Origin: a bacterium HR10
Lineage (GTDB): Bacteria > Acidobacteriota > Blastocatellia > HR10
Reading direction: 5' to 3'
NCBI GenBank assembly: GCA_002923315.1
Contig: BEHM01000001.1
Location: 56,506 to 120,505 of the forward strand
Length of the DNA: 64,000 bases
In this document: positions 19,737 through 33,173 of the stretch, in pieces
How positions within the stretch are numbered: position 1 is the first letter of the stretch
How the letters are laid out: the number at the start of each line of letters is the position of its first letter
Translations under genes and position numbers: made by a program
Notes under the pieces: generated by a model
Seen by the model: only the letters and a program-made list of their open reading frames with translations
Database searches by the model: none
What the model was told of the DNA's origin: nothing

Positions 19737-20041
19737 GGAGCGCTCAGCGTAGGACAGGGCGGGCGCCGTTGTCAACCGTCGCGCGCTCGATCTTCTTTCG
19801 TTCGGGATGAACGCGGACCATTCCGACGCCGACCGATCCTTCGGCGGTGCGTGGTGGCCGTCGAGCGCGCGTTCGTCGGACGGTCGAGGGACGGGGATTT
19901 TAACCCGCCATCGGGGCTTTCCCCCTCTCCGAGGAGCATCCCGTCGGTTCTCCCGACTCTCGTCCCGAGGCGGTGCTCTCTGAACCCTCGGGGGAGGAAG
20001 GGTATGGCTTGATCGCCCGGAGGTGCATTCGCTGCCGTTTT

Positions 20042-20057
20042 CGGCACAATGGTTGCT
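20042..20057 (+). promoter_or_regulatory. candidate sigma-54 (-24/-12) promoter CGGCAC-N5-TTGCT upstream of the pentahaem cytochrome
   Basis: It has GG at -24 and GC at -12 with the correct 5-nt spacing, and lies about 160 nt upstream of ATG 20215. rpoN and a sigma-54 activator are both encoded in the window. Confidence 0.3.
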
Positions 20058-20214
20058 ACGTCGCCCCTCGGTGGGTAGCAGATGCGCGAGAGCTGAGGGA
20101 GCGCGCCTTCGGCGCATCGCGAGTGTCGGAATCGAAGGGTCAGCGACCGCCGTCGGCGAGAGGGACGCTGCGTCGGACGCGGTGATCGAGAGCCCGCAGG
20201 GAGGAGGGACGCTC

Positions 20215-21033
20215 ATGAGGCGGCGAACATGCGCCTTTGTATTGGGTCTCAGTCTGGGCATTGGGGGAGCGCTGCTCGGAGCGCGCCTCGGAGGGGCATC
20301 CCCCCTTCAGGGAAGTGCGCAGGCGGAGAATTCGTGCGTGACGTGTCATCAGCGGATCACAACCCCGCTGGAGTTGAGTCAGCGGTATTACGATTGGCAC
20401 CTCTCGGTCCATAAGGAGAGAGGGGTTACCTGTGACGTCTGTCATGGGGGGGATCCTCGGGCGCGACAGGCGCAGGAGGCTCATCGCGAGATGCGCGCCT
20501 CCTCCGATCCACACAGTCGGGTGCATGGGAAGCATCAGCCGGAGACCTGCGGCGCGTGCCATCAAGAGGTGCGCACCGCTTATCTGGCGAGCGCGCACTT
20601 TGCGAAGCTCAGCGCGGCGGGTCTGGGACCGTTCTGCAGCACGTGCCATCTGCAGATGGCGAACGCGACGGTCCGGAGTGCCATTGACGTCAGCGCACTC
20701 TGCGGCCGCTGCCACAACGCCGAAGGAGGGATCATGCCGCCGAATCCGCAGCTCATCAAGAGCGCGCAGGAGACGCTCCTAAGCCTGAGTCGGGCCAACG
20801 GGGTGATCATCTGGGCGGATCGCCTCATCGAAGCGGCCGAGGGGAAGAACCTCACCATCGCCGAGGAGCGGCGGGAGTTAGAGGCGGCTCGAAAGCTCCT
20901 GCAAGAGGCGAAGTGGGAGTGGCACGCCTTCCGCCTGGAGCCCGTGCGGGCGAAGGCCGATCGCGCCTTCGAGCAGGGGGCGAAGGTGAAAGATCGGTTG
21001 CTGCAGAAGGTCTATCCGGGGTCGCGTCCATAG
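20215..21033 (+). CDS. periplasmic pentahaem c-type cytochrome
   Basis: The start is MRRRTCAFVLGLSLGIGGALLGA (signal peptide), preceded by GGAGGGA. There are five CxxCH motifs: CVTCH, CDVCH, CGACH, CSTCH, CGRCH. Confidence 0.7.
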   Translation: MRRRTCAFVLGLSLGIGGALLGARLGGASPLQGSAQAENSCVTCHQRITTPLELSQRYYDWHLSVHKERGVTCDVCHGGDPRARQAQEAHREMRASSDPHSRVHGKHQPETCGACHQEVRTAYLASAHFAKLSAAGLGPFCSTCHLQMANATVRSAIDVSALCGRCHNAEGGIMPPNPQLIKSAQETLLSLSRANGVIIWADRLIEAAEGKNLTIAEERRELEAARKLLQEAKWEWHAFRLEPVRAKADRAFEQGAKVKDRLLQKVYPGSRP

Positions 21034-21163
21034 GGCGAATCGTTCGGGTGCCTGCGAGAGGTGCTCGGGAGGGCAGGCGAGGATTCTCGCGATCAATTGA
21101 GGAGGGGCCTCGATGAAGATCATGCGCGTGCTCGAAAGTGGCCGATCTTCTCGCCGATCCCCC

Positions 21164-21745
21164 TCAGGATGAGGACCGTCGCAAGGGCCTCGATTCGGGA
21201 GCGAGTCGCGCGAGAGCCTCCTCGACGAGGCGCCGACAGGAGGGGCAGAAGGCGTTCGATTTGATGTCCACGTGCTCGATGGAGTTTGAGAAGTGCATGA
21301 CGCAATCGAAGGTCGAGCAGTGGATGAGACCGAACGTGTGTCCCAACTCATGGAGCGCTTCCTTCTCGCAGCGCTCCAGGAAGAGTCGGCGATCCTCCGG
21401 CAGGCCGTAAAAGCGCTGGTCGAGCCGATGGACTGAGAGCACGGCCGCCGCTCCCCCAAGCTGCGCCTCCCCAAAGACGAACGTGAGGATGGGGATGAAG
21501 AGGTCCACGTCCGTCACGCCGAGCACCTTCACGGCGGGATTTCGGTGCCCTCGAACCAGTTGCGCGAGCAGCGTCGTGGAATGGTACTGCTGGCGGAGCG
21601 GGTGATAGGCGGCGTCCAACTCGATCGGATGGTCACGAATGCGACAGGAGACGGGGAGCGTCTCCGGCAAGACGAGCGCGAGGAACTCGAGGACGTCCGT
21701 GTCCACGTTCCCGATCGGGACCAGCTCGATGAGCGCCCGCGACAC
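21164..21745 (-). CDS. amzA: archaemetzincin-family zinc metalloprotease
   Basis: The sequence HELGHTFGLIHCSTFDCVMH...(16)...CPSC fits the archaemetzincin signature HExxHxxGx3Cx4CxMx17CxxC. Its start lies 12 bp downstream of the sigma-54 activator gene. Confidence 0.65.
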   Translation of the reverse strand: MSRALIELVPIGNVDTDVLEFLALVLPETLPVSCRIRDHPIELDAAYHPLRQQYHSTTLLAQLVRGHRNPAVKVLGVTDVDLFIPILTFVFGEAQLGGAAAVLSVHRLDQRFYGLPEDRRLFLERCEKEALHELGHTFGLIHCSTFDCVMHFSNSIEHVDIKSNAFCPSCRRLVEEALARLAPESRPLRRSSS

Positions 21746-21757
21746 GATCGCTCCTCG

Positions 21758-23119
21758 TCATACCGGCGAATCGGGTTTGAGCTGATACTTGCGAATCTTA
21801 TTGTAGAGCGTCACGCGATCAATGCCGAGCAACCGCGCGGCCTGCGAGATGTTCCACCTCGTCTCCTGCAGGATCCGCTGGATGTGCTGCCGCTCGACCT
21901 CGGCGAGCGTCTTTCCCACCGGCTGTCCGCGCGCTTCGTTCACCTGCAAGGGCAGGTCTTCGGGGCGGATCTCCCGTCCGCGGCAGACGAGCACCGCGCG
22001 CTCGATGGCATTTTGCAGCTCGCGCACGTTTCCCGGCCAGTCGTAGCGCTCCAACAGCGCCAGGGCTTCGGGCGAGATGCCGAGGATCGGCTTGTTCATG
22101 CTCTGCGCGAACTTCTTGAGGAAATGCTCGGCCAGAAGCGGGATGTCCTCCCGCCGCTCGCGCAGCGGCGGGATGGTGATGGAGAAGACGTTGAGGCGAT
22201 AATACAGGTCCTCGCGGAATCTCCCCTCGGCGACCAGGGCTTCCAGGTCTTTGTTCGTCGCCGCGATCAGACGGAAGTCCACGGGGATCGGCGTATTGCC
22301 GCCGACGCGAAAGATCTTCTTCTCCTCGAGCACGCGCAGCAGATCCACCTGCGTCTTGAGGCTGATGTCGCCGATCTCGTCCAGAAAGAGCGTCCCTCCA
22401 TCGGCCAGCTCGAATTTCCCCTTGCGCCGATAATGGGCGCCGGTGAAGGCGCCCTTCTCATGGCCGAACAGCTCGCTCTCGATCACCCCTTCGGCCAGAG
22501 CGCCGCAGTTGACGATGACGATCGGCATGTAGCGGCGGGGACTGTTGGCGTGAATGGCGCGGGCGACCAACTCCTTGCCCGTCCCGCTCTCCCCGCGGAT
22601 GAGGACCGTCGTATCGGACATGGCGACGAGGCGAATCTGTTCGAGCACTCGCTGAATGGCTGCACTCTGTCCGACGATCTCATGGAACAGCGCCATCTCC
22701 TGAATCCGCTCGCGCAGCCGGACGTTCTCGGCCACCAAGCGCTTCCGCTCGACGGCGTTTCGGATGATGTGCTCCAGCTGATCGGGATCGAAGGGCTTCA
22801 CGATGTAATCGTAAGCACCCTGCTTCATCGCCTCCACGGCCGTTTCGACCGAAGCGTAAGCCGTCATGATGATGATGGAGGCCTCCGGGGCGATCTCCCG
22901 AATGCGCCGCTGCAGTTGCAGTCCGTCCATTCCGGGCATCTTGATATCAATGAGGAAGATGTCGTAGCTCGACTCGGCCAGCTTCTGCAAGGTCTCCTTC
23001 CCCGATCCGGCGACGTCCACCGTGTATCCCTCCTCGCGGAGCCAGTTCCCCAGGGATTCCCGCACGATGGCCTCGTCGTCCACGATCAAAATGCGGATCG
23101 CGCTTTTGGATACCGTCAT
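21758..23119 (-). CDS. sigma-54-dependent response regulator (NtrC/ZraR family: REC-AAA+-HTH)
   Basis: It has a receiver (ILIVDDE...), an AAA+ Walker A (GESGTGKE), the sigma-54 contact motif GAFTGA, and a C-terminal Fis-type HTH. A 4-bp overlap with the upstream kinase gene indicates coupling. Confidence 0.9.
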   Translation of the reverse strand: MTVSKSAIRILIVDDEAIVRESLGNWLREEGYTVDVAGSGKETLQKLAESSYDIFLIDIKMPGMDGLQLQRRIREIAPEASIIIMTAYASVETAVEAMKQGAYDYIVKPFDPDQLEHIIRNAVERKRLVAENVRLRERIQEMALFHEIVGQSAAIQRVLEQIRLVAMSDTTVLIRGESGTGKELVARAIHANSPRRYMPIVIVNCGALAEGVIESELFGHEKGAFTGAHYRRKGKFELADGGTLFLDEIGDISLKTQVDLLRVLEEKKIFRVGGNTPIPVDFRLIAATNKDLEALVAEGRFREDLYYRLNVFSITIPPLRERREDIPLLAEHFLKKFAQSMNKPILGISPEALALLERYDWPGNVRELQNAIERAVLVCRGREIRPEDLPLQVNEARGQPVGKTLAEVERQHIQRILQETRWNISQAARLLGIDRVTLYNKIRKYQLKPDSPV

Positions 23120-24798
23120 AGCCTGCTCTCCATGTGGTGAGGCGCGTCTCCGGAGAAGACCTCGAAGGCGCGATCAGTCTGATCCTCCGCTCCCGTCGGC
23201 GGGGTGAGTGGGAGCCGGAGGGTGAACGTCGTCCCGTGCCCGAGCGCGGACTGCACGTGGATATCCCCCCCGTGCCGGTGAAGGATGCTGAGCACGACGG
23301 AGAGCCCGAGGCCGAGGCTCCCCTCCTTCTCCTTCGTCGTGAAGAAGGGTTCGAAGATGCGCCGTTGCGTCTCTTCATCCATCCCGACGCCGTTGTCGCG
23401 GATCGCGATCTCAACCCGCTGCGCCTCAGGGAGGAAACGCGAGGTGACGGTGAGCATGCCTTCTTCTGGCCGCACCGCTTCGCAGGCATTGATCAGGAGC
23501 GCGACCAGCGCTTGCCGCATCTGCTGTCCGTCGCAGACGACGGGCGGCACGTCCGGATCGAGTTGAACCTCCGTCTGCAGGCTCATCAGCTCGATCTTAT
23601 GCTGAATCAGGCGGAGCGATTGACGGATGAGTTCGTTGACATCATGCGGCTGGAAGTGCGCGCGCGAGGGGCGGACGAATTGCAAGAGGTTCTTCACGAT
23701 CTCCCCGCAGCGGGCCGATTCGCTGGCGATCATCTCCAGATACTGGCGCGCATTGGCGAGGTCCTCGGGCGAGAACCCGTGATCCCCCATCTTCTTGAGC
23801 AGGAGCTTGGCGGTCGTGAGGATGCCGGAGAGGGGGTTGTTGATCTCGTGAGCGACGATGGCGGCGAGTTTCCCGATGGAGGCCATGCGCTCGGCGTGCA
23901 TCATCTGCTCGTGCGTGCGTCGCAGCTCGGCCGTCTTCTCCGCCACGCGCTCCTCCAGGGTGCGCGCCCAGCTCGTCAGCTCCTCATGAGCGCGCTTCAA
24001 CTCCTCGGTCATGGCGTTGAATGACGCCGCCAACTCGCCCAGTTCGTCCCGCGCGGTGAGCGGGATCTTATGGTCGAGGTCGCCAGAGGCGACGCGCTCG
24101 GTCCCCCGCTTCAGGTGCCGGATCGGGACATGGATCATCACGGCGGTGACGGCCACGACAACGAGCGCGACAAAGAGGATGCTCCCCAGGAAGAGGAAGA
24201 AGAGCTGGCGCTGCCCTTCCGCGATGGCCGCGTCCACCGGGGCGAGCGAGAGCGTCACGTCCAACACGCCGAGCACCGATTGCGCCGGCGAGTGCGCGTG
24301 GCAGGAGGCCGTGTAACATCCCGGTTCGTTCTCAATGGGATTGATGAGTCCCAAGATGCGCTCTCCGCGCTCTCCGAGGTACACGCGGACGCGATCCGGA
24401 CGATCCAGGCGAACAAGCGGCTGCTCCTGCGCATGGCAGCCGTAGCAGGCCTCGGCGCGCTTGTCCACGAACGTATTCACCTCGCGCGCATCAGTGGAGA
24501 AGCTGATCCGACCCTCTTTGTCGAAGATGCGGATCTTGTGAATCCCGGGCTGCGCGCCGATGGTGAGGAGCGTGTGATAGATCTCATCCCGATGGTTCTG
24601 CAGCATGCTGTAGCGGAGCCCCCGCTTGATGACGTCGCTCGTGCGATCCGCGCTGGCGATGGTCATCTGCTCCAGGTCGCGCTTGTGCAGCCGGAGGGTT
24701 TGGTAGCCGAGCAGCGAGAAGACAAACGCCATGCTCGCGATGAGCCAAAGGGTCAGCTTCACGCTCACGCTCGATGTCCAGCGTCGCCACCCCCTCAT
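23116..24798 (-). CDS. sensor histidine kinase with haem-c-motif periplasmic domain (NtrB/ZraS-like HisKA)
   Basis: I chose the start at MRGWRRW (24798). The roughly 170-aa periplasmic segment between its two TM helices contains CYGCH (CxxCH) and CYTASCH (Cx4CH). It also has HAMP, an H-box (AHEINNPL) and HATPase_c. Confidence 0.8.
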   Translation of the reverse strand: MRGWRRWTSSVSVKLTLWLIASMAFVFSLLGYQTLRLHKRDLEQMTIASADRTSDVIKRGLRYSMLQNHRDEIYHTLLTIGAQPGIHKIRIFDKEGRISFSTDAREVNTFVDKRAEACYGCHAQEQPLVRLDRPDRVRVYLGERGERILGLINPIENEPGCYTASCHAHSPAQSVLGVLDVTLSLAPVDAAIAEGQRQLFFLFLGSILFVALVVVAVTAVMIHVPIRHLKRGTERVASGDLDHKIPLTARDELGELAASFNAMTEELKRAHEELTSWARTLEERVAEKTAELRRTHEQMMHAERMASIGKLAAIVAHEINNPLSGILTTAKLLLKKMGDHGFSPEDLANARQYLEMIASESARCGEIVKNLLQFVRPSRAHFQPHDVNELIRQSLRLIQHKIELMSLQTEVQLDPDVPPVVCDGQQMRQALVALLINACEAVRPEEGMLTVTSRFLPEAQRVEIAIRDNGVGMDEETQRRIFEPFFTTKEKEGSLGLGLSVVLSILHRHGGDIHVQSALGHGTTFTLRLPLTPPTGAEDQTDRAFEVFSGDAPHHMESRL

Positions 24799-24814
24799 GT
24801 CCCCATCCCTGTAT

Positions 24815-26392
24815 TCACGGCCGATGACACACCGCGCATTCCTCCTGCGCGCTGAAGGAGGTCTTCCCGTCATGACATCGTCCGCAATGTCGCGCGTCGT
24901 GCCAGTCGCGCGCGGGACGCGACGAGGCCTCCCCCTCGACCTTCAGGATGTGGAACGGCTCACGATGACACACGGTGCAGTCCGGTCGCTCCCAGTTGAT
25001 GTGCGAAGCATGTCGGAACGTGACCGGCCCCGGGCTCCCCTCCCCCTGCGGGAACGTGACGTCCGGTGGGATGTTCAATCGTTCCAGCCCTTCGGCGATG
25101 TTCGGCTCTTCTTCGAGGCGAGACGGAGAGGCGAGAGCCCGCTCGCGATAGGACAGGCCGCTGTAGGCCACGCCGAGGGCGCCGAAGAAGACGATTCCGC
25201 CGAGGATCAGGATCAGAGGTGTCGTCCCGATCCACGGTCTTCGGAGAACGGCGACGGCCGGTGGGACTGCGACCTCCCGCTCCATCTCCGGAAAGACGGG
25301 CAGATATTTCACCGCCAACCCGAACAGGGCGAATCCCAGTGCTACGATCATGAAGGTCACCGAGAGCTCGGTCCAGCTTGGGAAGTACGAGACGCCGGAG
25401 GAGGCCTCCATCCCCGTGATGCTCACGTTCAACCGGTTCATGATGAAGCCCAGGACGACCAGGAGGGCGGAGACGAACAGGCCGAAATGGTCCGTCCGAA
25501 CGCGGCGCACGCTCAGCAGCAGCATGGGACCGATCACGCCGAGCATCATCTCGGCCAGGAACATCCGCGCCTCGTAGGTCGGCTCCAAGACGTGAGCGAG
25601 TGCACCGCGCCCGACCAGATCCTGAACCTTCAGCACCAGATACACGGCCAGCGCGACGACGATCACTTTGCCCAGATCGGTGAGCAGATCAATCTCCAGT
25701 CGTTTCCGGAATGCCCGGTAGCTCAGGAACGACTCGAAGATGGTCATCGCGCACCCGAGCGCGATGGCCGAGATGAAGAAGAAGACGGGCAGAAGCGGCG
25801 AGTACCAGAGCGGATGCAGCTTCTCCGGCACGATCAGATAGAGCGAACCGAGCGAGGATTGATGAAGCGTCGAGAGGATGACGCCGAGAATGACCAATGG
25901 TACCGTCAGCGCGTGCAGGATCCGAAGTGGCCTTTGAAGTCTCAAGCGCTCGAACACCATGGGGCTGAATTCCAGTGCGAGCACTGTCGTGTAGAGCATG
26001 ACGCACCAGGCCACCTCGAACATCACCGAGTGGGGATTCCACATGACCAGCGGATGCCAGATGCGATACGGGCGTCCCAGATCAAAGAGCAGGGCCACAA
26101 TGACCAGCAGGTACCCGAGGAAGGCCGTGAGGATCGTCGGGCGAATGATCGGGCGAAATCGCTCGATGTTGAAGATGTAGACGACGGCGCTGATGGTGAA
26201 TCCTCCGGCGGCCAGCGCGACCCCGCAGAGGACGTCGAAGCCCACCCACAGGCCCCATGGGAAGGCATCGCTCAGGGCCGTGCTCGCTCCCAATCCTCCG
26301 GTGAACCGGACGACCGTGCTGTAGAGGCCGGCACCCAAGATGACCAGAAACACCAGCTGCCAGAAACCAGGCCGTCGCAGGCGCCACCTCAT
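24815..26392 (-). CDS. NrfD/PsrC-family polytopic membrane subunit fused to a C-terminal cytochrome c7-like trihaem domain
   Basis: I chose the start at MRWRLRRPGFW (26392), preceded by AGGGAGG. It has about 10 TM helices of the NrfD type. The C-terminus (VTFRHASHINWERPDCTVCH...CGRCH...CAVCH) resembles PpcA-type trihaem cytochromes. Confidence 0.7.
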   Translation of the reverse strand: MRWRLRRPGFWQLVFLVILGAGLYSTVVRFTGGLGASTALSDAFPWGLWVGFDVLCGVALAAGGFTISAVVYIFNIERFRPIIRPTILTAFLGYLLVIVALLFDLGRPYRIWHPLVMWNPHSVMFEVAWCVMLYTTVLALEFSPMVFERLRLQRPLRILHALTVPLVILGVILSTLHQSSLGSLYLIVPEKLHPLWYSPLLPVFFFISAIALGCAMTIFESFLSYRAFRKRLEIDLLTDLGKVIVVALAVYLVLKVQDLVGRGALAHVLEPTYEARMFLAEMMLGVIGPMLLLSVRRVRTDHFGLFVSALLVVLGFIMNRLNVSITGMEASSGVSYFPSWTELSVTFMIVALGFALFGLAVKYLPVFPEMEREVAVPPAVAVLRRPWIGTTPLILILGGIVFFGALGVAYSGLSYRERALASPSRLEEEPNIAEGLERLNIPPDVTFPQGEGSPGPVTFRHASHINWERPDCTVCHREPFHILKVEGEASSRPARDWHDARHCGRCHDGKTSFSAQEECAVCHRP

Positions 26393-26471
26393 ACCTCCCT
26401 CCTTCGCCAGACCGCATCCGTCGCGCGAGTGGCACGCGCGAGGAAGCCGGATCTCCCTTTGCGTCGAGCCG

Positions 26472-27305
26472 TCATGACGAATTCGTTGAGTCGGATGCCG
26501 AGGATGATCCCGATGGCTCCGGGAGATCACGCGGCGGTTCTCCGGAGTCGCGTCCTCGCTCCTGGCGCTCTCGGCGTTGCACCTCTTGGCGCCGATTCGT
26601 GATCCACCAGATGCCTCCGAGCAGAACGCCCCCGACGATGACGAAGTTGGGGATCTTCTGCAAGACCTGCCACGTCAGCAGGGGGAGCGGCTCCCGGAGC
26701 AGATCCGTTCGGTAGCCCAGGCGCTCGAACGGGACATCCGAGAGCAGCAGGACCGAGGTTCCACCGACTTCCTCCAGGCCGTAAATCCTCGGCACGTACT
26801 TCTGCGGGTGAGCGCGAAGTCGCGCGCGGGCCTCCTCGATCAGCTCCTGACGATCCCCGAACTTCGTCGCTCCCGTGGGACAGACTTCGGCGCATGCCGT
26901 CGGTCGCCCTGCCACGAGGCGATCGGCACACAGATCGCACTTTCGGATGCGCGGCAGGATCTTCCGCCACTCATACTTCGGGATCCCGAAGGGGCATGCC
27001 AGCATGCAATAGCGGCATCCGATGCACCGCTCTTCGTGATAGATGACCGGGCCGGCCGCCGTCTTCTCCAACGCGCCGACCGGACAGACGGACGCGCACG
27101 TCGGGACCTCGCAGTGCATGCAGAGCTGGCGGACGAATCGTCCCCCGCGCTTCTTCACGACCGTATAGGTTTGGTCCGACAGCCGATCCTCCAAAAAGTG
27201 CGTCGCTGTCGGGGGGAGCCGGTTCCGCTCCTTGCACGCTTGGTAGCAGGCGCCGCATCCGATGCACAAGGTCGCATCAAAGAGGAGGCCCTTTTTGCTG
27301 CCCAT
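26472..27305 (-). CDS. 4x[4Fe-4S] ferredoxin-type subunit (NrfC/HybA/PsrB-like) with a C-terminal TM anchor and no signal peptide
   Basis: There are four Cys clusters (CIGCGACYQAC, CMHCEVPTCASVCP, CIGCRYCMLACP, CDLCADRL...CAEVCP) and a C-terminal helix (IVGGVLLGGIWWI). The start is the second ATG (27305), 6 nt after GGAGG. Confidence 0.8.
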   Translation of the reverse strand: MGSKKGLLFDATLCIGCGACYQACKERNRLPPTATHFLEDRLSDQTYTVVKKRGGRFVRQLCMHCEVPTCASVCPVGALEKTAAGPVIYHEERCIGCRYCMLACPFGIPKYEWRKILPRIRKCDLCADRLVAGRPTACAEVCPTGATKFGDRQELIEEARARLRAHPQKYVPRIYGLEEVGGTSVLLLSDVPFERLGYRTDLLREPLPLLTWQVLQKIPNFVIVGGVLLGGIWWITNRRQEVQRRERQERGRDSGEPPRDLPEPSGSSSASDSTNSS

Positions 27306-27555
27306 ACGCATCCTCCACTAGGAGGCGATGCAATTTCCATTCCACGCCTGGATCGTGAGGTCGCTTTCAGCAGCCGGCCACTGAGAGCCGTCCGGTCAAG
27401 CGGTTACAGCAGGGTGGCTCCCTCCTCTCATCCCCCGCGACTGCGCGCGAGGGAGAGGGGTGGGGCAAATCACTCGCTTCCTGAGGCGCGATTCGCGCCT
27501 CCGGCGAGGCTTCGACCTCAAGTGAGGGTCGGCAAAACGCCTTCCTTCGCTCGCT

Positions 27556-28248
27556 TCACCCCTCGGCTGGATGCGGGCTGCGCAGGAATGTTCGGGTGAA
27601 CTCCTCCCAACTGGCTTCATCCAGAGCCTCCAGGACGCCATCGGTCCACTGCCCGCCGTCCTGCAGGACGTGTCCGAGAGCCGCCTGCGGCATCGGCCGC
27701 CACGTGAGGAACTCCTTGAAGCGTTCGATCTCGCACTGGAGCCACGCCCGAGCTTCCTCGGCGACCAGCAGATGGCGTAAGTGCGCCGCCAGGTTCTTCG
27801 GCGTCAGCGTGCAGATCCATCCATCTTCGTACGGATCCATTCGCCCCGTCTCTGGCTGGCGCATGAGGATCTCATTGACCGCGCTCACCACTCCATCGAG
27901 CGGGGCGCGGAAGACGGCCCGTCGGCCCCCCTGCGTGATGGCGAAGAGCGGATCACCCCGCCGCACCATGACGCCGACTTTCGGCAAGTCCACGGCATCC
28001 ACGCGCCCGATGGCTCGACGCGCGAACTCATCCATGCCGACGAATGTCCGTCCGCTCGGTTCCAGGCGCACCCACGTGTGCCCTTCGTCCAGGAAGAGAC
28101 CGGCAGGGATGGAGACGGTCTCGAAGGCGAGCGTCGGACGCAGCGCCGGTCGCCTCACGGGACGTCCCTGTCGGGCCTCAGCCCATTGGACGACGGAATC
28201 CACGAGGATGAATCCGATGATCGTGAGAATGACAAAGAGAGCGACCAT
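27556..28248 (-). CDS. membrane-anchored glycine-cleavage-H-like (GcvH-fold) protein without the lipoyl-lysine
   Basis: It has an N-terminal TM (MVALFVILTIIGFILV). The GcvH-like core reads HTWVRLE...VGMDEFA...VDLPKVG...PYEDGWICTL. The position aligned to the lipoyl-Lys (ESVKA in GcvH) reads TQGGRRA. A strong RBS (GGAGGTGA) precedes the start. Confidence 0.6.
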   Translation of the reverse strand: MVALFVILTIIGFILVDSVVQWAEARQGRPVRRPALRPTLAFETVSIPAGLFLDEGHTWVRLEPSGRTFVGMDEFARRAIGRVDAVDLPKVGVMVRRGDPLFAITQGGRRAVFRAPLDGVVSAVNEILMRQPETGRMDPYEDGWICTLTPKNLAAHLRHLLVAEEARAWLQCEIERFKEFLTWRPMPQAALGHVLQDGGQWTDGVLEALDEASWEEFTRTFLRSPHPAEG

Positions 28249-28251
28249 AGT

Positions 28252-29184
28252 TCACCTCCTCTCCGGAGATCGCCTCCGAGGCGCACTCACCGTGCGCCCG
28301 ATCCGTGGCTGCAAGAACCGCGCGATCACCTGTTCCCATCGCGCGGGACCAAGGACTTCCATGAGCGATTCCATCGCAGCCCGCGTCAGCATCTCCTGCG
28401 CCGTGCACTCCCCTTCAAGGGGAACGCCCCCATCTTGGAGCGTGCGGCCTGCGGCAGAGACTTCTGGGGGCGTCCCCAAAGCGCGCAAGGCCGCGCGAAC
28501 CGCTCGGTGCAGCTTCGAAACTTCCCGCTCATACCAAGAACGCGCCTGCTCCCCATAGAGCAGGTGCTTCAAACTCTCCCGCAAACGTTCCGGTCGCAAC
28601 AGTAGCAGCCATCCGTCCCCATACGGATCGTGATTGATGAGGGAGGGGTATCGCGTGAGCCGCTCGTTGAGCTGAAGGATGACACCCGTCAGAGGAGCGG
28701 ACAGAATGATCTCCCCGGCCTGATGCGCCAGCTTACCCAGCGGGCGTCCGGCGATCACGCGCGCGCCCACTTCCGGAAAGCTCACCTGATAAATCCGCCC
28801 GAGGAGCTTCTGTCCGAAATCATCCAGTCCGATTCGCACGTCCCCCCGCCGCTCGATGCGCGCCCACACATGCGTCGGATGGTAGAAGAGCGCCTCCGCC
28901 ATGTGGAAGCCACCTCGGCTGAAGAGGCGGTGAGACGCCGTGCGCTCACCGTGAGATCGTGAGCTTCCCTCCTCACCGGCGATCTCCCTCGTCCGCTCCC
29001 GAAGGGCGCGGTCAAAAGGGCAATGGTCGCATTCGTAGTCGCGATCGCAAAGTTTGTAGTCCACGATCCCCGCCAACATCCACACGCACTGGAGCACGGG
29101 AGCAGCACCCTCGCGCTCGATGGAGAGCGGATGAGCTCCAGGGCCGGTGGCCTCGGTCGGTCCTCTCGACAGCACCTCGTCCAT
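28252..29184 (-). CDS. GcvH-like protein with an N-terminal Cys-rich motif
   Basis: I chose the start at ATG 29184 (MDEVLSRG), preceded by GGGAGGG. The Cys motif is CVWMLAGIVDYKLCDRDYECDHCPFD, followed by a GcvH-like core (THVWARIE...IGLDDFGQKLLG...HDPYGDGWLLL). The raw ORF start at 29331 is a TTG inside a regulatory palindrome, which is why I rejected it. Confidence 0.55.
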   Translation of the reverse strand: MDEVLSRGPTEATGPGAHPLSIEREGAAPVLQCVWMLAGIVDYKLCDRDYECDHCPFDRALRERTREIAGEEGSSRSHGERTASHRLFSRGGFHMAEALFYHPTHVWARIERRGDVRIGLDDFGQKLLGRIYQVSFPEVGARVIAGRPLGKLAHQAGEIILSAPLTGVILQLNERLTRYPSLINHDPYGDGWLLLLRPERLRESLKHLLYGEQARSWYEREVSKLHRAVRAALRALGTPPEVSAAGRTLQDGGVPLEGECTAQEMLTRAAMESLMEVLGPARWEQVIARFLQPRIGRTVSAPRRRSPERR

Positions 29185-29210
29185 TGTCCCTCCCTCAACT
29201 CTCCCTTGAG

Positions 29211-29226
29211 GGCAATCGATGTGCCG
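29211..29226 (-). promoter_or_regulatory. candidate sigma-54 promoter (minus strand: CGGCAC-ATCGA-TTGCC) for the GcvH-like operon
   Basis: On the minus strand there is GG at -24 and GC at -12 with 5-nt spacing. The predicted TSS is near 29200, about 16 nt before ATG 29184 and spanning its RBS. Confidence 0.4.
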
Positions 29227-29317
29227 CGCGACGTCCTCTCCGGCGGCGTGGAAGTCCTTCGATCCGAAGAACATGCGCGCGCTCTGACCAGTGGCGCGGC
29301 CTTCTCGCGCTGCGTCC

Positions 29318-29332
29318 GTTGAATTCTTCAAC
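29318..29332. promoter_or_regulatory. palindromic operator/enhancer site 1 (GTTGAA-TTC-TTCAAC)
   Basis: A perfect 6-3-6 inverted repeat. The extended 18-bp sequence CGTTGAATTCTTCAACGC is identical to site 3. Confidence 0.45.
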
Positions 29333-29384
29333 GCGAGCCGAGGGCCAGCTGGGGCAAGTCTCAGCGCATCGCGCGCTTAGTCAT

Positions 29385-29399
29385 GTTGAAGAATTCAAC
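29385..29399. promoter_or_regulatory. palindromic operator/enhancer site 2 (GTTGAA-GAA-TTCAAC, the reverse-complement form)
   Basis: A perfect inverted repeat. Its centre is 67 bp from site 1 and 22 bp from site 3. Confidence 0.45.
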
Positions 29400-29406
29400 A
29401 CCTGTC

Positions 29407-29421
29407 GTTGAATTCTTCAAC
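29407..29421. promoter_or_regulatory. palindromic operator/enhancer site 3 (GTTGAA-TTC-TTCAAC)
   Basis: A perfect inverted repeat, about 61 bp upstream of the -24 element of the plus-strand sigma-54 promoter. Confidence 0.45.
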
Positions 29422-29474
29422 GCACGGGGCACTCCTTCCCGGTTTAACTTCAGCAGAATCAATGTCCCTGCCTC

Positions 29475-29490
29475 TGGCATGCGGCTTGCA
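29475..29490 (+). promoter_or_regulatory. sigma-54 promoter TGGCAT-GCGGC-TTGCA for the C_GCAxxG-dihaem gene
   Basis: A near-consensus -24 (TGGCAY) and -12 (TTGCA) with 5-nt spacing. The predicted TSS is near 29500. RBS GGAGGGA lies at 29524-29530 and ATG at 29537. Confidence 0.5.
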
Positions 29491-29536
29491 CGAAGGAAAA
29501 AGCGGAAGTGCTGATCTCATCATGGAGGGATGAGCA

Positions 29537-30340
29537 ATGAGGAAGACGCTGACGCGAAAAGAGTTCCTCACGTTGACGACCAAATGTGCCACATGCGCCG
29601 CCGTCGGTGCAGCTGGGCTGAGCCTCCTCGGAAGGGAAGGGATCGCCCAGATGGATCTTCCGCCGTGGCCGTGGCCCTATCGAAAGCTCGATCCCGAGTA
29701 CGTGCGCAAGCTCGGGCACGAGGGGTATTGGGAGAAAGGATATGGCTGCGCCTATGGCGCTTTCAGAGCCATCATCATCCCATTGCGCGAGGCGGTCGGG
29801 TATCCCTATACGATGATCCCCACGGAGCTCATGATCTGGGGGCACGGGGGCGTCGTCGGATGGGGCGGAACGTGTGGGGCGCTCCTTGGGGCCAGCGCCG
29901 CTATTCAGCTCGTGTGCGATAAGCCGACGGCCGATCGGCTCATCCATGAATTGCAGGGGTGGTACACGCAAGCGCTCCTGCCGACGGACATCAGCAACGA
30001 GTACGCGCAGACAGGGCAGTTCTTCGTCCAGAAGTACACGCGACCACTCCCGCAGAATGCCGCAGGCTCACCCCTGTGTCACATCTCGGTGACCTTGTGG
30101 TGCGAGCGTTCGGGATTCACCGCTTCCTCACTTGAACGCAAAGAGCGCTGCGGCCGGCTCACAGGTGATGTCGCCGCTCGCGCCGTGGAGCTATTGAATC
30201 AATGGGCTGATGGTCAATTCCAGAGCATCTATGTCCCACCGGAGTCCATCGCGACCTGCCTCACGTGTCACGGGGATAAGGGGCTGGACAACGTGAAGGC
30301 CAAGATGAACTGCACGCAGTGCCACGCGCCGCATCCGTGA
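29537..30340 (+). CDS. C_GCAxxG_C_C-family putative redox protein fused to a C-terminal dihaem cytochrome c, with a Tat-like (RK) signal peptide
   Basis: The signal is MRKTLTRKEFLTLTTKCATCAAVGAAG. The family motifs are GYGCAYGAF and GGTCGALLGA. Two CxxCH motifs (CLTCH, CTQCH) sit in the last 40 aa. Confidence 0.65.
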   Translation: MRKTLTRKEFLTLTTKCATCAAVGAAGLSLLGREGIAQMDLPPWPWPYRKLDPEYVRKLGHEGYWEKGYGCAYGAFRAIIIPLREAVGYPYTMIPTELMIWGHGGVVGWGGTCGALLGASAAIQLVCDKPTADRLIHELQGWYTQALLPTDISNEYAQTGQFFVQKYTRPLPQNAAGSPLCHISVTLWCERSGFTASSLERKERCGRLTGDVAARAVELLNQWADGQFQSIYVPPESIATCLTCHGDKGLDNVKAKMNCTQCHAPHP

Positions 30341-30483
30341 GGACGCCGGACGTGGGGCCTCGCGTCTGACGAGGAGTCGGGAGCAGAACCCCCGCCGTTG
30401 AGGCGGCCATCAGCAAGAGGGCATGCAATCGTGAGAGGGCGCTCGCGCCAGGTCGCGGACGAACTCCCGCGGGGCGATCCGCC

Positions 30484-32331
30484 TTAGGAGACTCCTCGAA
30501 CGGGGGGCGCGCTCCCGTTCAGGAGCGCTTCATCGGGGAGCTCCAGTCGGAGCTCTTGGAGGCTTCCGAGCAAAAGCTCACGCACTTCGGCAGAGCGTGA
30601 GGCGGCGAGCGCCTGGCGAACGACCTCGCGCACGCGCGTCAGCTCGCATGCTCGCACGAAGTCCTTGATGAGCGGGATCGCGCGCGGGCGCATGCTCAAG
30701 ATACGGGCTCCCAAACCCAGCAGGACCAGCGCATGCAGCGGATGCGCGGCCATCTCGCCGCAGACTTCAAGGGGGCGGCCTGCGCGCTCGGCCGCCTGGA
30801 TCACGTGCCGCAGAGCGCGCAGCACGGCCGGATGCAGCGGATCATAGAGCGAGGCCACGCGATCGTTATCCCGATCCACCGCCAGCAGGTACTGGATGAG
30901 ATCGTTGGTCCCCAGGCTGAGGAAATCCGCCACGGCAGCCAGCTCATCGGCGAGCCACACGGCGGCAGGCGTCTCGATCATCACGCCCACGGGAAGACGA
31001 TCCGGCGCGGCGATCCCTTCTGCGCGCAGTTCACGGCATGCGGTCTGAAGCAGGTGTCGGACCTGCTCGACTTCCTCCAAACTCGTGATCAGGGGGAGGA
31101 CGAGGCGCAGATTCCCGAAGGCGGCGGCCCGCACGATGGCGCGCAATTGGGTTTTGAGAACCTCCGGCGCGCGCAGCGAGAACCGAATGGCGCGGAGCCC
31201 GAGCGCCGGATTCCGCTCGGGGAGCCATGGCTCCGAAGACTCGGACTCCATCTGCCGGTCGCGCAGCGCATGAAGGGTGCCGAGCGCGGCCATCTGATTT
31301 TCGTCCCAATCCACCGTGCGAATGGCGACCCCGTCGCGCCCGGCCACTTCCGCGGCCTGACGATACGCCTCCAGTTGCAGCTCTTCCGAGGGCAGTTCCG
31401 GAGCTGCCTGCAGGAAGAGAAATTCCGTGCGGAGCAAGCCAATCCCGCATGCGCCGAAACGGTGCAGGTCATCCAATTCAGAGAGACGCTCGATGTTCGC
31501 GCGGATGGTGATCGGAACGCCGTCGCGCGTCATCGTGGGGAGAGGGGCGCGTGCCTGCCATCGGATCCAATGCTGTTCGCGCTCCTGGCGCTGCCGCTCA
31601 TAATGCTGAAGGACATCTGGGGAGGGACGGACGAAGACGAGCCCTCGCGTCCCATCCACGAGGACGAGCGCCTGATCTTCGATCTGCGCGAGCGCCCCAC
31701 GAAGACCCGATACGGCCGGGATGCCCAGCCCACGGGCGAGAATGGCCACGTGCGACGTCCATCCCCCTGTGCCGAGGATCAAGCCCGCGATGCGCTGCGG
31801 ATCGAGTTCCCCAAGCAGGCTTGGCGGGAGCGTCTCGCTCACCAGGACCGCACTCTCCGGAAAGGCGCAGGTGGAGCGGTCCCCCGAGAGCACCCTGAGC
31901 AATCGGTTCGCCACATCTTCGATATCACTGCCACGCTCGCGCAAATCATCGTCCTTGATCTCCGCATAGATGGCCAGGATGCGATCAGTGACCAGTTTCA
32001 CCGCCCATTCGGCGTTGACGGCGTTGGTGCGGATGAGGCTTTCGATCTCGCCGAGGATCCCCGCATCCTCCAACATCAGCACGTGCGCATCCAGGATATA
32101 GGCGTGTTCTTTCCCCAGGGCGTGCTCCATGCGTTGCCGCAGGACGCGCAATTGCTCGCGCGCGATGCCCACGGCCTTGTGGAAGCGGGCCACCTCGGAC
32201 TCGATCTCCTGAGGAGCGAGCCGCCGGCGGAAGATCACTCGTCCGCGCCAAGGCGAGTGCACGGCCGGTCCCCACCCGATCCCCGGCGAGATGCCCAGTC
32301 CGCGGAGTATGATCTCCGAATTCGCCGTCAC
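30484..32331 (-). CDS. ptsI: phosphoenolpyruvate-protein phosphotransferase (PTS enzyme I)
   Basis: Full-length EI similarity, with the active His context GGWTSHVAILARGLGIPAV and a PEP-utilising C-terminal domain. Confidence 0.9.
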   Translation of the reverse strand: MTANSEIILRGLGISPGIGWGPAVHSPWRGRVIFRRRLAPQEIESEVARFHKAVGIAREQLRVLRQRMEHALGKEHAYILDAHVLMLEDAGILGEIESLIRTNAVNAEWAVKLVTDRILAIYAEIKDDDLRERGSDIEDVANRLLRVLSGDRSTCAFPESAVLVSETLPPSLLGELDPQRIAGLILGTGGWTSHVAILARGLGIPAVSGLRGALAQIEDQALVLVDGTRGLVFVRPSPDVLQHYERQRQEREQHWIRWQARAPLPTMTRDGVPITIRANIERLSELDDLHRFGACGIGLLRTEFLFLQAAPELPSEELQLEAYRQAAEVAGRDGVAIRTVDWDENQMAALGTLHALRDRQMESESSEPWLPERNPALGLRAIRFSLRAPEVLKTQLRAIVRAAAFGNLRLVLPLITSLEEVEQVRHLLQTACRELRAEGIAAPDRLPVGVMIETPAAVWLADELAAVADFLSLGTNDLIQYLLAVDRDNDRVASLYDPLHPAVLRALRHVIQAAERAGRPLEVCGEMAAHPLHALVLLGLGARILSMRPRAIPLIKDFVRACELTRVREVVRQALAASRSAEVRELLLGSLQELRLELPDEALLNGSAPPVRGVS

Positions 32332-32618
32332 GATCCCAATCGCTCCTCCTCTTCACCGAATTTCGACTCGATCAACCGGCAGATGGCTTCGATCGCCTCC
32401 ACCTCGTCCTCTCCGGATGTGGTGATGTCCAGATGCGTCCCCGCCGATGCCGCCAGCAGCAGGACGCCGAGGATGCTCTTGGCGTCCGCCGTCTGTCCCG
32501 TATCGGAGCGGGCGAGCGTGATCGCGCTGCGGAACCGATTGGCCGCCTGCACGAGCTTGGCGGCTGCGCGCGCATGCAATCCCAGACGGTTGGCCACCTG
32601 CACCGTTCGTCGCTGCAT
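32328..32618 (-). CDS. ptsH: phosphocarrier protein HPr
   Basis: An His15 context (NRLGLHARAAAKL) and a Ser46 region (GQTADAKSILGVL). Confidence 0.85.
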   Translation of the reverse strand: MQRRTVQVANRLGLHARAAAKLVQAANRFRSAITLARSDTGQTADAKSILGVLLLAASAGTHLDITTSGEDEVEAIEAICRLIESKFGEEEERLGS

Positions 32619-32624
32619 CGCCGG

Positions 32625-33038: not shown

Positions 33039-33173
33039 CCTGCTTCCTCCGGCGTCGGCGAAGCGACGAACCGCTCGCCTCCCCGACGCATGCGCTCGAG
33101 CTCCGTGCCTTCCGTGCTTTCTTATTGTACCTCAAGGCGTCGGCTCGCGTCCTCATCGGGAGCTGCCGTGTGC

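What the first reader, a model, noticed from the sequence alone, without database searches (positions are those of the whole stretch)
23116..24798. Histidine kinase with CxxCH and Cx4CH motifs in its periplasmic sensor domain: candidate haem-c redox sensor
The roughly 170-residue segment between the two TM helices carries ACYGCHAQ (canonical CxxCH) and GCYTASCHAH (Cx4CH, a known variant covalent haem-attachment motif). The surrounding genes all encode c-type cytochromes and Fe-S proteins. The kinase has an NtrB-type H-box (HEINNPL) and is translationally coupled (ATGA) to a GAFTGA sigma-54 activator.
A covalently bound haem in the periplasmic domain would allow direct sensing of periplasmic redox state or electron flux through the co-encoded conduit.
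Basis: partly seen in the sequence, partly recalled or inferred. Interest (0 to 1): 0.7.

Follow-up and report, generated by a model that had tools for sequence, protein, structure and literature searches.

The report
Haem-c Cache sensor kinase, two-haem type
This membrane histidine kinase carries a periplasmic sensor domain related to the Geobacter chemoreceptor domains that hold a covalently bound haem, here with a second conserved haem-attachment motif, so it is most likely a redox (or gas) sensor driving a sigma-54 regulator; it is a new member of a known but little-studied kind.

Summary
The gene at 23116-24798 (-) encodes a 560-aa kinase: TM1, a ~165-aa periplasmic domain, TM2, HAMP, HisKA (HEINNPL) and HATPase. 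Its stop overlaps (ATGA) the start of a GAFTGA sigma-54 response regulator.

The domain carries C118-YG-C-H122 and C161-YTAS-C-H167-A-H169. Both motifs are conserved. CxxCH is present in 106/106 homologues. The second motif is Cx4CH in 78 and CxxCH in 14. Met65 is invariant.

A family profile matches the solved haem-c sensor GSU0935 (PDB 3b42, E=1.2e-7). Motif 2 aligns on its Cys140/Cys143/His144 and Met65 on its distal ligand Met60. The AlphaFold model (pLDDT 89) has a single-Cache fold.

So the haem-sensor reading is supported, but the kind is known: Geobacter haem-c "PAS-like"/sCache_haem sensors. Two-motif members (GSU0599, GSU0591, Adeh_2011, Adeh_3383) are already noted in the literature, though I found no characterisation of them.

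New here is a large, mainly acidobacterial clade with conserved synteny: FeS, NrfD, kinase, sigma-54 regulator, M54 peptidase. It also has conserved sigma-54 promoters and a candidate regulator-binding palindrome.

Haem binding, the number of haems and the signal (redox versus NO/CO) remain untested.

The parts
23116..24798 (-). Sensor histidine kinase gene (560 aa from ATG 24798; a longer ORF reaches 24873)
24700..24762 (-). TM1 (aa ~13-33), preceded by a positively charged N-terminus (MRGWRRW)
   Evidence: hydropathy; continuous helix in the AF2 model
24208..24699 (-). Periplasmic single-Cache (PDC/PAS-like) sensor domain, aa ~34-197
24604..24606 (-). Met65, invariant; aligned with Met60, the distal haem ligand of GSU0935
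24433..24447 (-). Motif 1, C118-Y-G-C121-H122 (CxxCH), in a lower-confidence insertion between strands; the additional haem-attachment motif
   Evidence: 106/106 conserved; pLDDT 57-77 in this segment
24292..24318 (-). Motif 2, C161-YTAS-C166-H167-A-H169 (Cx4CH-x-H); homologous to the haem site Cys140/Cys143/His144 of GSU0935
24124..24207 (-). TM2 (aa ~198-225)
23995..24135 (-). HAMP domain
   Evidence: Pfam PF00672, E=2.5e-15
23671..23874 (-). HisKA dimerisation/phospho-acceptor domain; H-box HEINNPL with His317 at 23848-23850
   Evidence: Pfam PF00512
23203..23532 (-). HATPase_c catalytic domain
   Evidence: Pfam PF02518, E=1.5e-23
21758..23119 (-). NtrC-family response regulator (REC, sigma-54 AAA+ with GAFTGA, HTH_8); its start overlaps the kinase stop (ATGA)
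21164..21745 (-). M54 (archaemetzincin-like) peptidase gene, 13 nt after the regulator; conserved at this position in most related loci
24815..26530 (-). NrfD/HmcC-like membrane protein fused to a C-terminal tri-haem c7 domain (likely start Met47 at about 26392)
26472..27311 (-). HmcB/HybA-like 4Fe-4S protein with no signal peptide (likely start 27305)
27329..27344 (-). Sigma-54 -24/-12 element TGGAATGGAAATTGCA just upstream of the FeS gene
   Evidence: conserved in the aligned intergenic regions of five related loci
27556..29331 (-). Two GcvH-like genes (27556-28248 and 28252-29331) at the head of the same-strand gene string
29211..29226 (-). Sigma-54-type element CGGCACATCGATTGCC upstream of the first GcvH-like gene
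   Evidence: positional equivalents in L001-L004, L016, L031
29318..29421 (.). Three exact copies of the palindrome GTTGAA-N3-TTCAAC (29318-29332, 29385-29399, 29407-29421); candidate binding sites of the regulator
29475..29490 (+). Sigma-54 -24/-12 element TGGCATGCGGCTTGCA, 47 nt upstream of the GCAxxG gene
   Evidence: equivalents in L001/L002
29537..30340 (+). C_GCAxxG_C_C protein with two C-terminal CxxCH motifs, divergently transcribed
20023..21033 (+). Cytochrome c with five CxxCH (likely start at about 20215); sigma-54-like element CGGCACAATGGTTGCT at 20042-20057

Best explanation
The gene encodes a membrane histidine kinase whose periplasmic single-Cache domain carries covalently bound c-type haem. 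It belongs to the same sensor family as the Geobacter chemoreceptor domains GSU0935 and GSU0582.

Predicted haem sites:
- The family's canonical haem would be attached at C161/C166, with His167 as proximal ligand.
- Met65, on the long N-terminal helix that continues directly from TM1, would be the exchangeable distal ligand.
- A second haem would be attached at C118/C121/His122, in an insertion between the early beta-strands. His169 is a candidate sixth ligand for one of the two haems.

Proposed signalling, by analogy with the Geobacter sensors. Reduction favours Met-on, low-spin haem, and oxidation (or NO/CO binding) releases the Met. The resulting movement of the N-terminal helix passes through TM1/TM2 and HAMP to the DHp His317 and sets kinase activity. 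The phosphoryl group then goes to the translationally coupled NtrC-type regulator.

Proposed output. The regulator activates sigma-54 promoters in the locus. These lie in front of the GcvH-like/FeS/NrfD-c7/kinase/regulator/M54 gene string (autoregulation) and in front of the divergent GCAxxG di-haem gene, probably through the GTTGAA-N3-TTCAAC palindromes.

What is shown: domain architecture, membrane topology, motif conservation, homology and residue-level alignment to a solved haem-c sensor, conserved synteny, and conserved -24/-12 elements.

What is inferred: haem occupancy of either site, the identity of the ligands, the nature of the signal, the direction of the response, and the regulator's targets.
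For: - Architecture and topology: TM, ~165-aa loop, TM, HAMP, HisKA, HATPase, with a positively charged N-terminus.
- Conservation: CxxCH in 106/106 homologues and Met65 in 100/100. The second motif is Cx4CH in 78 and CxxCH in 14; variable spacing with a fixed Cys-His is what haem-c sites tolerate.
- Breadth: among 146 new 50%-identity representatives, 136 carry CxxCH plus Cx4CH, 3 carry Cx3CH as the second motif and 1 carries CxxCH. The family has 2415 clusters at E<=1e-3.
- Homology: the family profile hits PDB 3b42 at E=1.2e-7 and 3b47 at E=0.008. The alignment places C161..C166-H167 on C106..C109-H110 of the 3b42 chain and Met65 on M26. With the published numbering these are Cys140/Cys143/His144 and Met60, the haem-binding residues and distal ligand of GSU0935.
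- Haem maturation: the window encodes further CxxCH proteins (five, three and two motifs), so the organism must make c-type cytochromes.
- Output: ATGA coupling to a REC/sigma-54 AAA+ (GAFTGA)/HTH_8 regulator, and rpoN at 35535-37010.
- Promoters: the -24/-12 element upstream of the FeS gene is conserved in alignment while its flanks diverge. It is enriched, 25/68 loci against 8.75% of control windows.
- Palindrome: three exact copies fall within 104 bp, where 0.61 are expected in the whole window. In related loci 29/32 sites lie 2-5 kb upstream of the kinase. In L001-L004 a 1-mismatch sigma-54 promoter follows 91-102 nt downstream.
- Published behaviour of the family: redox-linked Met-on/Met-off switching, Em of -156 and -251 mV, and NO/CO binding (PMC8396549).
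Against: - No experiment shows haem in this protein or, in the papers I found, in any two-motif member.
- The window sequence alone gives no PDB hit and is below Pfam's gathering score for PF21563 (24.2 against 27 bits). The link to the solved sensors is at profile level.
- Motif 1 lies in the least confident part of the model (pLDDT 57-77).
- His169 is replaced (Lys in 9 sequences; Ser, Arg, Pro and others in a few) in about 20 of 95 homologues, so it is not a universal ligand.
- The window-wide count of sigma-54-like sites is not above chance (16 against 18.2 expected). Only position and conservation support them.
- In the Terriglobia loci no good -24/-12 site follows the palindrome within 260 nt.
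- Redox versus gas sensing cannot be distinguished from sequence. Related sCache_haem domains fused to signalling modules behave as NO sensors (PMC12889525).
Confidence: 0.65

Rival explanations
1. Same haem-c Cache sensor, but the physiological signal is a diatomic gas (NO, possibly CO or O2) that displaces the distal Met, not ambient redox potential or electron flux.
For: GSU0582 and GSU0935 bind NO in both redox states and CO when reduced, with displacement of Met60 (PMC8396549). The 2026 preprint on sCache_haem domains reports that members fused to signalling modules have NO-sensor properties. The invariant Met65 is an exchangeable type of ligand.
Against: The conserved partners are a quinone-type FeS/NrfD module and, in this clade, c-type cytochromes. 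No NO-detoxifying genes (nor, hmp, hcp) were seen in the 64 kb. A second conserved haem suits electron relay better than gas binding. The window domain is only distantly related to the Tll0287/DUF3365 group tested in that preprint: 2/29 family members match PF11845.
Confidence: 0.2
2. Only the family's canonical site (motif 2, C161/C166/H167) binds haem. The CxxCH at 118-122 is a structural or metal-binding element, or a redox-active disulfide, so the protein is a mono-haem sensor.
For: Only motif 2 aligns with the haem site of the solved structures. Motif 1 lies in a low-confidence insertion. In the papers I found, no two-motif member has been characterised.
Against: Cys, Cys and the following His of motif 1 are invariant in 106/106 sequences, more strictly than motif 2. 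A CxxC disulfide or a Zn site would not need the adjacent His. The flanking sequence AEAC-x-x-CH gives weak matches to cytochrome families: NrfA at E=0.02-0.03, and Cytochrome_C7 and Paired_CXXCH in a few members.
Confidence: 0.15
3. The Cys/His motifs do not bind haem at all. The four cysteines and the histidines form a Zn or Fe site or a thiol-disulfide switch in a ligand-binding Cache domain.
For: Four Cys and three His in about 75 residues could coordinate a metal. No direct evidence for haem exists. Public annotations call these proteins only 'HAMP domain-containing protein' or 'NtrC family sensor kinase'.
Against: Motif 2 and Met65 align residue for residue with the haem-binding Cys/Cys/His and the distal Met of a crystal structure that contains haem c. 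The spacing of motif 2 varies (2, 3 or 4) while the Cys-His pair is kept. The domain is periplasmic, where haem c is attached, and the organism makes other c-type cytochromes.
Confidence: 0.05

Closest known systems
GSU0935 and GSU0582 periplasmic haem-c sensor domains of Geobacter sulfurreducens chemoreceptors (PDB 3b42, 3b47; Pfam PF21563)
   Same: Periplasmic domain between two TM helices followed by HAMP. PAS-like/single-Cache fold. Cys-x(n)-Cys-His after the strand motif ...P-I/F-x-N-E..., aligned with motif 2. A Met on the N-terminal helix aligned with the distal ligand Met60.
   Different: Those are chemoreceptors with one haem and CxxCH spacing. The window protein is a histidine kinase, has Cx4CH at that site, and carries an extra invariant CxxCH in an insertion of about 15 residues. 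Similarity is detectable only with a profile.
Two-motif members noted in the literature: GSU0599 (two-component protein), GSU0591, Adeh_2011, Adeh_3383
   Same: They are described as haem-sensor-type domains with two CX2-4CH motifs. By locus-tag number GSU0599 would be next to GSU0598 (BccR), a sigma-54 response regulator. That would be the same kinase plus sigma-54 regulator arrangement next to respiratory genes.
   Different: I could not retrieve their sequences, so orthology and the position of their extra motif were not tested. BccR controls cbcBA, a di-haem cytochrome b plus multihaem c, whereas the partner here is an HmcB/HmcC-like FeS/NrfD pair. The BccR paper does not mention a kinase (0 occurrences).
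sCache_haem family (DUF3365/Tll0287, PF11845; Deshpande et al. 2026 preprint, PMC12889525)
   Same: A Cache scaffold with an inserted short element carrying CxxCH and covalent haem c. It occurs in chemoreceptors, kinases and GGDEF/EAL proteins. WalK is the closest haem-free fold in that work, as it is here.
   Different: Only 2/29 members of the window's family match PF11845. That family is described with one CxxCH. Its tested signalling members behave as NO sensors.
DcrA of Desulfovibrio vulgaris (chemoreceptor with periplasmic c-type haem)
   Same: A transmembrane signal transducer with covalent haem in the periplasmic domain, proposed to sense oxygen or redox potential. This rests on reference titles seen and on my own knowledge.
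   Different: It is a chemoreceptor, not a kinase. No sequence relationship was tested here.

Membership tests
Haem-c periplasmic Cache/PAS-like sensor domains (GSU0582/GSU0935 type, PF21563) | Extracytoplasmic domain flanked by two TM helices | tested here: met
   Hydropathy peaks at aa 13-33 and 198-225; charged N-terminus; HAMP after TM2
Haem-c periplasmic Cache/PAS-like sensor domains (GSU0582/GSU0935 type, PF21563) | Single Cache (PDC/PAS-like) fold | tested here: met
Haem-c periplasmic Cache/PAS-like sensor domains (GSU0582/GSU0935 type, PF21563) | Significant sequence similarity to the family | tested here: inconclusive
   The family profile hits 3b42 at E=1.2e-7 and 26/29 members match PF21563 with best E=5.7e-8. 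The window sequence alone scores 24.2 bits, below the 27-bit cutoff, and gives no single-sequence PDB hit.
Haem-c periplasmic Cache/PAS-like sensor domains (GSU0582/GSU0935 type, PF21563) | Conserved Cys-x(2-4)-Cys-His at the position of the structure's haem site | tested here: met
   C161/C166/H167 align with Cys140/Cys143/His144 of GSU0935; conserved in 96-97 of 99 homologues
Haem-c periplasmic Cache/PAS-like sensor domains (GSU0582/GSU0935 type, PF21563) | Distal Met on the N-terminal helix | tested here: met
   Met65 is invariant (100/100) and aligns with Met60
Haem-c periplasmic Cache/PAS-like sensor domains (GSU0582/GSU0935 type, PF21563) | Covalently bound haem c actually present | not testable with these tools
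   Needs haem staining, mass spectrometry and spectroscopy
NtrB/NtrC-type two-component system (HisKA kinase plus sigma-54 enhancer-binding regulator) | HisKA H-box and HATPase_c in the kinase; REC, sigma-54 AAA+ with GAFTGA, and HTH_8 in the regulator | tested here: met
   Pfam and NCBIfam (best partial matches AtoS/ZraS and AtoC/ZraR, all below equivalog cutoffs); GAFTGA at residue 223
NtrB/NtrC-type two-component system (HisKA kinase plus sigma-54 enhancer-binding regulator) | Sigma-54 present, with -24/-12 promoters at target genes | tested here: met
   rpoN at 35535-37010. Conserved GG-N10-GC elements upstream of the FeS gene and both divergent genes. The window-wide count is not above chance.
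Geobacter BccR (GSU0598)/GSU0599-cbcBA system | Orthology of the kinase and regulator to GSU0599 and GSU0598 | not tested
   The sequences could not be retrieved with the available searches. The resemblance rests on literature descriptions.
Geobacter BccR (GSU0598)/GSU0599-cbcBA system | Adjacent CbcB-type cytochrome b plus CbcA multihaem cytochrome | tested here: not met
   The neighbours are HmcB/HybA-like FeS and HmcC/HybB-like NrfD proteins. No cytochrome b family was found.
Multihaem cytochrome c (c3/c7-type) domain | Cytochrome c3/c7 fold with closely packed bis-His haems | tested here: not met
   The fold is alpha/beta Cache. Only weak, sub-threshold matches to cytochrome families occur, around motif 1.

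The most novel reading that the evidence does not exclude
The conserved FeS/NrfD pair may not be (only) a regulated respiratory enzyme. It could instead be the sensor's own input device. In that reading the NrfD-type quinone-binding module, here extended by a tri-haem c7 domain, exchanges electrons with the kinase's extra haem (motif 1). That haem relays them to the Met-switch haem (motif 2). The kinase would then read the redox state of the menaquinone pool, or flux through this one conduit, rather than bulk periplasmic potential.

This would be a dedicated quinol-to-haem-to-kinase signalling complex. It would also suggest what feeds regulators such as Geobacter BccR, for which the paper I read names no sensor.
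Probability: 0.15. Interest if true: 0.7.

Novelty: new member of a known kind. Interest (0 to 1): 0.4.

Why it matters
It is still poorly understood how bacteria measure periplasmic or extracellular redox potential in order to switch respiratory pathways. In Geobacter the sigma-54 regulator BccR turns on cbcBA as potential falls, yet the paper describing it names no sensor.

The family found here is large: 2415 clusters at 50% identity, mostly in Acidobacteriota, which are abundant in soils and peat. Its members pair a probable two-haem periplasmic sensor with a sigma-54 regulator and a quinone-type membrane module.

It offers a tractable model for three questions:
- How a second haem tunes or feeds a Met-switch haem sensor.
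- Over which potential window such sensors operate.
- Which genes they control.

The practical gain is modest. Annotation of these 'HAMP domain-containing' kinases can be improved, and a candidate regulator-binding site (GTTGAA-N3-TTCAAC) can be tested.

Tried and rejected
- The single-sequence phmmer search of the sensor domain against the PDB found nothing. Only the family profile reached 3b42 and 3b47.
- The search for related loci with the 68-sequence alignment failed because no stretch was conserved enough. A 13-sequence alignment worked, but it returned only the 80 closest loci, so no Geobacter or Anaeromyxobacter locus was obtained.
- The afdb50 fold library was not available, so named AlphaFold-database homologues such as GSU0599 could not be found.
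- Both homologous-protein runs returned mainly short fragments (under 400 aa) with generic names. The listing of cluster members also gave only generic names. GSU0599, GSU0591 and the Adeh sequences were therefore never compared directly.
- Model coordinates are not exposed, so Cys-Cys and ligand distances in the AF2 model could not be measured.
- A strict sigma-54 consensus scan gave too few hits, and the relaxed window-wide scan is not above chance. I relied on positional conservation instead.
- My 'HKcore' tblastn query was out of frame, and its sparse hits should be ignored.
- The sigma-70 promoter and terminator scan of 20000-30500 was uninformative.
- The 11-mer ATTTGCCCCAC, conserved upstream of the FeS promoter, has no second good copy in the window.
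- Rejected: that the domain is a cytochrome c3/c7-type fold (the fold is Cache), and that the motifs are chance (expected 4e-4 per motif).


Full report
**What is there**

The finding's coordinates (23116-24798, minus strand) delimit a real gene. The ORF can be read from 24873. The ATG at 24798 is preferable for three reasons: it has a purine-rich stretch upstream, it lies 17 nt after the stop of the preceding gene, and it matches where homologues start.

The 560-aa product has two hydrophobic segments, at about aa 13-33 and 198-225, flanking about 165 residues. HAMP, HisKA and HATPase_c follow. The N-terminus is positively charged and HAMP must be cytoplasmic, so the loop is periplasmic.

The loop contains C118-YG-C-H122 and C161-YTAS-C-H167-A-H169. 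The H-box is HEINNPL. The stop codon overlaps the ATG of a REC/sigma-54 AAA+ (GAFTGA)/HTH_8 regulator as ATGA. From the local Cys and His frequencies, a CxxCH is expected 4e-4 times in such a segment.

**Conservation**

A search with TM1-sensor-TM2 found 107 homologues. In their alignment:
- The first CxxCH is present in 106 of 106 sequences.
- The two cysteines of the second motif are present in 97/99 and 96/99, its His in 83/89, and the downstream His in 91/101.
- One methionine (Met65) is present in 100 of 100.
- The spacing of the second motif varies while the Cys-His pair is kept: Cx4CH in 78 and CxxCH in 14.

A sensor-only profile (A3) was scored against 1.84 billion cluster representatives. 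It found 2415 proteins at E<=1e-3 and 435 at E<=1e-30. Of the 146 new sequences among the best 150, 136 carry CxxCH followed by Cx4CH.

**What the domain is**

The single sequence has no PDB match. A profile of the family matches 3b42 (E=1.2e-7) and 3b47 (E=0.008). These are the periplasmic haem-c sensor domains of the Geobacter sulfurreducens chemoreceptors GSU0935 and GSU0582 (descriptions).

The alignment puts ...LGLINPIENEP-C-xxxx-CH... on ...LSLVLPFPNEQR-C-QS-CH... It puts the invariant Met on chain residue 26. With the published numbering (Cys140, Cys143, His144, Met60; PMC8396549), the chain offset of 34 makes motif 2 the homologue of the haem-binding site. It makes Met65 the homologue of the distal axial ligand.

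An AlphaFold2 model built on 68 sequences is confident (pLDDT 89, pTM 0.79). It shows a long N-terminal helix continuous with TM1 and a five-stranded sheet. The only weak segment surrounds motif 1.
- Foldseek ranks 3b42 second.
- 26 of 29 family members match Pfam PF21563 (Mcp40H-20_sensor). Some match sCache_4, sCache_3_2 or Tll0287-like. The window's own score, 24.2 bits, is just under the 27-bit cutoff.

**What is known**

- Haem-c 'PAS-like' periplasmic sensors were described in Geobacter (Londer 2006 and Pokkuluri 2008, cited).
- A 2021 review lists twelve G. sulfurreducens signal transducers with CX2-4CH motifs. Two of them, GSU0591 and GSU0599, have two motifs, and GSU0599 is a two-component protein.
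- Adeh_2011 and Adeh_3383 of Anaeromyxobacter also have an additional motif.
- A 2026 preprint reclassifies the wider DUF3365/Tll0287 group, including GSU0582 and GSU0935, as 'sCache_haem'. It reports about 20,000 sequences in chemoreceptors, kinases and GGDEF/EAL proteins, and NO-sensor behaviour for signalling members.
- For GSU0582 and GSU0935 the published mechanism is a redox-linked spin and coordination switch. Met60 binds the reduced haem and is released on oxidation or displaced by NO/CO. Midpoint potentials are -156 and -251 mV.
- GSU0598 is BccR, the sigma-54 regulator needed to induce cbcBA at low potential. That paper does not mention a kinase. By locus-tag number GSU0599 would be its neighbour; I did not check this.

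The window protein is thus a new member of a known kind, of the two-motif type that I did not find characterised in the papers I read. I could not retrieve GSU0599 to test orthology directly.

**Genomic context**

The window is a housekeeping chromosomal region that includes polA, leuS, glmS, recJ and the rpoN-PTS cluster. It is 84-92% identical in this protein to Acidobacteriota/Blastocatellia-labelled metagenome-assembled genomes.

On the kinase's strand, tightly spaced, lie in this order:
- two GcvH-like genes;
- an HmcB/HybA-like FeS gene;
- an HmcC/HybB-like NrfD gene fused to a tri-haem c7 domain;
- the kinase;
- the regulator;
- an M54 peptidase gene.

Two genes are transcribed in the opposite direction: a GCAxxG protein with two CxxCH, divergent at the head of the string, and a five-CxxCH cytochrome, convergent beyond the M54 gene.

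In the 80 best related genome loci, mostly Terriglobia, the FeS-NrfD-kinase-regulator-M54 order recurs in roughly 70. Only 12 of the 80 have any ORF with three or more CxxCH within 6 kb. The conserved partner is therefore the FeS/NrfD module, not cytochromes.

A more distant Desulfobacterales homologue with the same two motifs sits next to Hdr/FlpD-like genes.

**Output side (inference supported by conservation)**

Sigma-54 is encoded 10.7 kb from the kinase gene. A GG-N10-GC element (TGGAATGGAAATTGCA, 27329-27344) lies just upstream of the FeS gene. It stays aligned in five related loci while the flanks diverge. Sites with three or fewer mismatches occur there in 25/68 loci, against 8.75% of random windows.

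Further -24/-12 elements lie at 29211-29226 (-), 29475-29490 (+) and 20042-20057 (+). They have positional equivalents in the closest loci.

Between the two divergent promoters are three exact copies of the palindrome GTTGAA-N3-TTCAAC, where 0.61 are expected in the whole window even allowing two mismatches. In related loci 29 of 32 such sites lie 2-5 kb upstream of the kinase. In L001-L004 a near-consensus sigma-54 promoter follows 91-102 nt downstream, the same spacing as in the window. This is a plausible upstream activating sequence for the co-encoded regulator, and it implies autoregulation. In Terriglobia loci no clear promoter follows the palindrome, so the generality is uncertain.

**Mechanism proposed**

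I propose a periplasmic Cache domain with one haem at the family's canonical site (His167 proximal, Met65 distal) and a second at the inserted CxxCH (His122 proximal). His169 may be a sixth ligand.

Redox-dependent (or gas-dependent) Met ligation would move the N-terminal helix that is continuous with TM1. That would modulate HAMP, DHp and kinase activity, and so phosphorylation of the sigma-54 regulator.

The rivals are gas sensing (0.2), a mono-haem protein with a non-haem role for motif 1 (0.15) and no haem at all (0.05). The most novel reading not excluded is that the FeS/NrfD(-c7) module feeds electrons from the quinone pool to the sensor through the extra haem (0.15).

**Verdict**

- The kind is already known, and this is a new member of it.
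- The two-haem subtype, its size, its acidobacterial distribution and its conserved operon are worth recording but would not surprise a specialist.

Noticed in passing
window 29318-29332, 29385-29399, 29407-29421: Three exact copies of the palindrome GTTGAA-N3-TTCAAC lie between two divergent sigma-54-type promoters. The same palindrome (one mismatch or fewer) occurs in 28 of 80 related loci, almost always 2-5 kb upstream of the kinase. It is a candidate binding site of the co-encoded sigma-54 regulator.
   Followed up: partly
window 27329-27344 (-), 29211-29226 (-), 29475-29490 (+), 20042-20057 (+): Sigma-54 -24/-12-like elements lie upstream of the FeS gene, the first GcvH-like gene, the GCAxxG gene and the five-haem cytochrome gene. 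All have positional equivalents in L001/L002. The one upstream of the FeS gene is conserved in alignment and enriched across loci.
   Followed up: partly
window 27460-27470 (-): An 11-mer, ATTTGCCCCAC, about 120 nt upstream of the FeS-gene promoter is conserved in L001, L002, L003 and L031 while its surroundings diverge. Its function is unknown, and no second good copy exists in the window.
   Followed up: partly
window 21164-21745 (-): An M54 (archaemetzincin-like) metallopeptidase gene follows the response regulator by 13 nt and keeps that position in about 70 of 80 related loci. I know of no reason for a peptidase in this two-component operon.
   Followed up: no
window 26472-27311 (-); L001-L080: The HmcB/HybA-like FeS protein starts directly at its first ferredoxin motif, with no Tat or Sec signal. 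This holds across the related loci (a twin-arginine-like motif in only 4 of 70), although its HmcB and HybA relatives have N-terminal extensions of 35-38 residues. Its C-terminal hydrophobic helix is followed by an Arg-rich tail. Which side of the membrane the clusters face is unclear.
   Followed up: partly
window 24815-26530 (-): The NrfD/HmcC-like membrane protein carries a C-terminal tri-haem c7 domain. In most related loci the NrfD gene is about 450 nt shorter, and only 12 of 80 loci have a nearby ORF with three or more CxxCH. The fusion therefore seems confined to this clade.
   Followed up: partly
window 27556-28248 (-) and 28252-29331 (-): Two consecutive GcvH-like (glycine-cleavage H fold) genes head the operon. 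The first-listed has an N-terminal hydrophobic helix. The second has a Cys-rich N-terminal region (CDRDYECDHC). A GcvH-like gene recurs upstream in many related loci.
   Followed up: no
window 29537-30340 (+): A C_GCAxxG_C_C 'putative redox-active' protein has a Tat-like N-terminus (TRKEFL) and two C-terminal CxxCH motifs. This is an unusual pairing of a Tat-type signal with haem-c motifs.
   Followed up: no
window 30484-37817 (-): A canonical rpoN neighbourhood (rpoN at 35535-37010, HPr kinase, RapZ, PTS EIIA-Man and PtsI identified by Pfam) lies immediately beyond the sensor locus. Sigma-54 is thus encoded 10.7 kb from the kinase gene, near a locus that appears to depend on it.
   Followed up: no
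L081 8001-10289: A Desulfobacterales-type homologue (762 aa, same CxxCH plus Cx4CH sensor, with extra cytoplasmic PAS domains) lies directly downstream of HdrA-like, FlpD and CCG-domain genes. The sensor type is therefore also linked to cytoplasmic Hdr-like redox modules.
   Followed up: no
window 199-2589 (-) and 2417-5446 (-): Two large hybrid histidine kinases lie at the start of the window. The 796-aa one (199-2589) has REC, PAS, HisKA and HATPase. The 1009-aa one (2417-5446) has HAMP, PAS, HisKA, HATPase and REC. They are unrelated to the finding.
   Followed up: no
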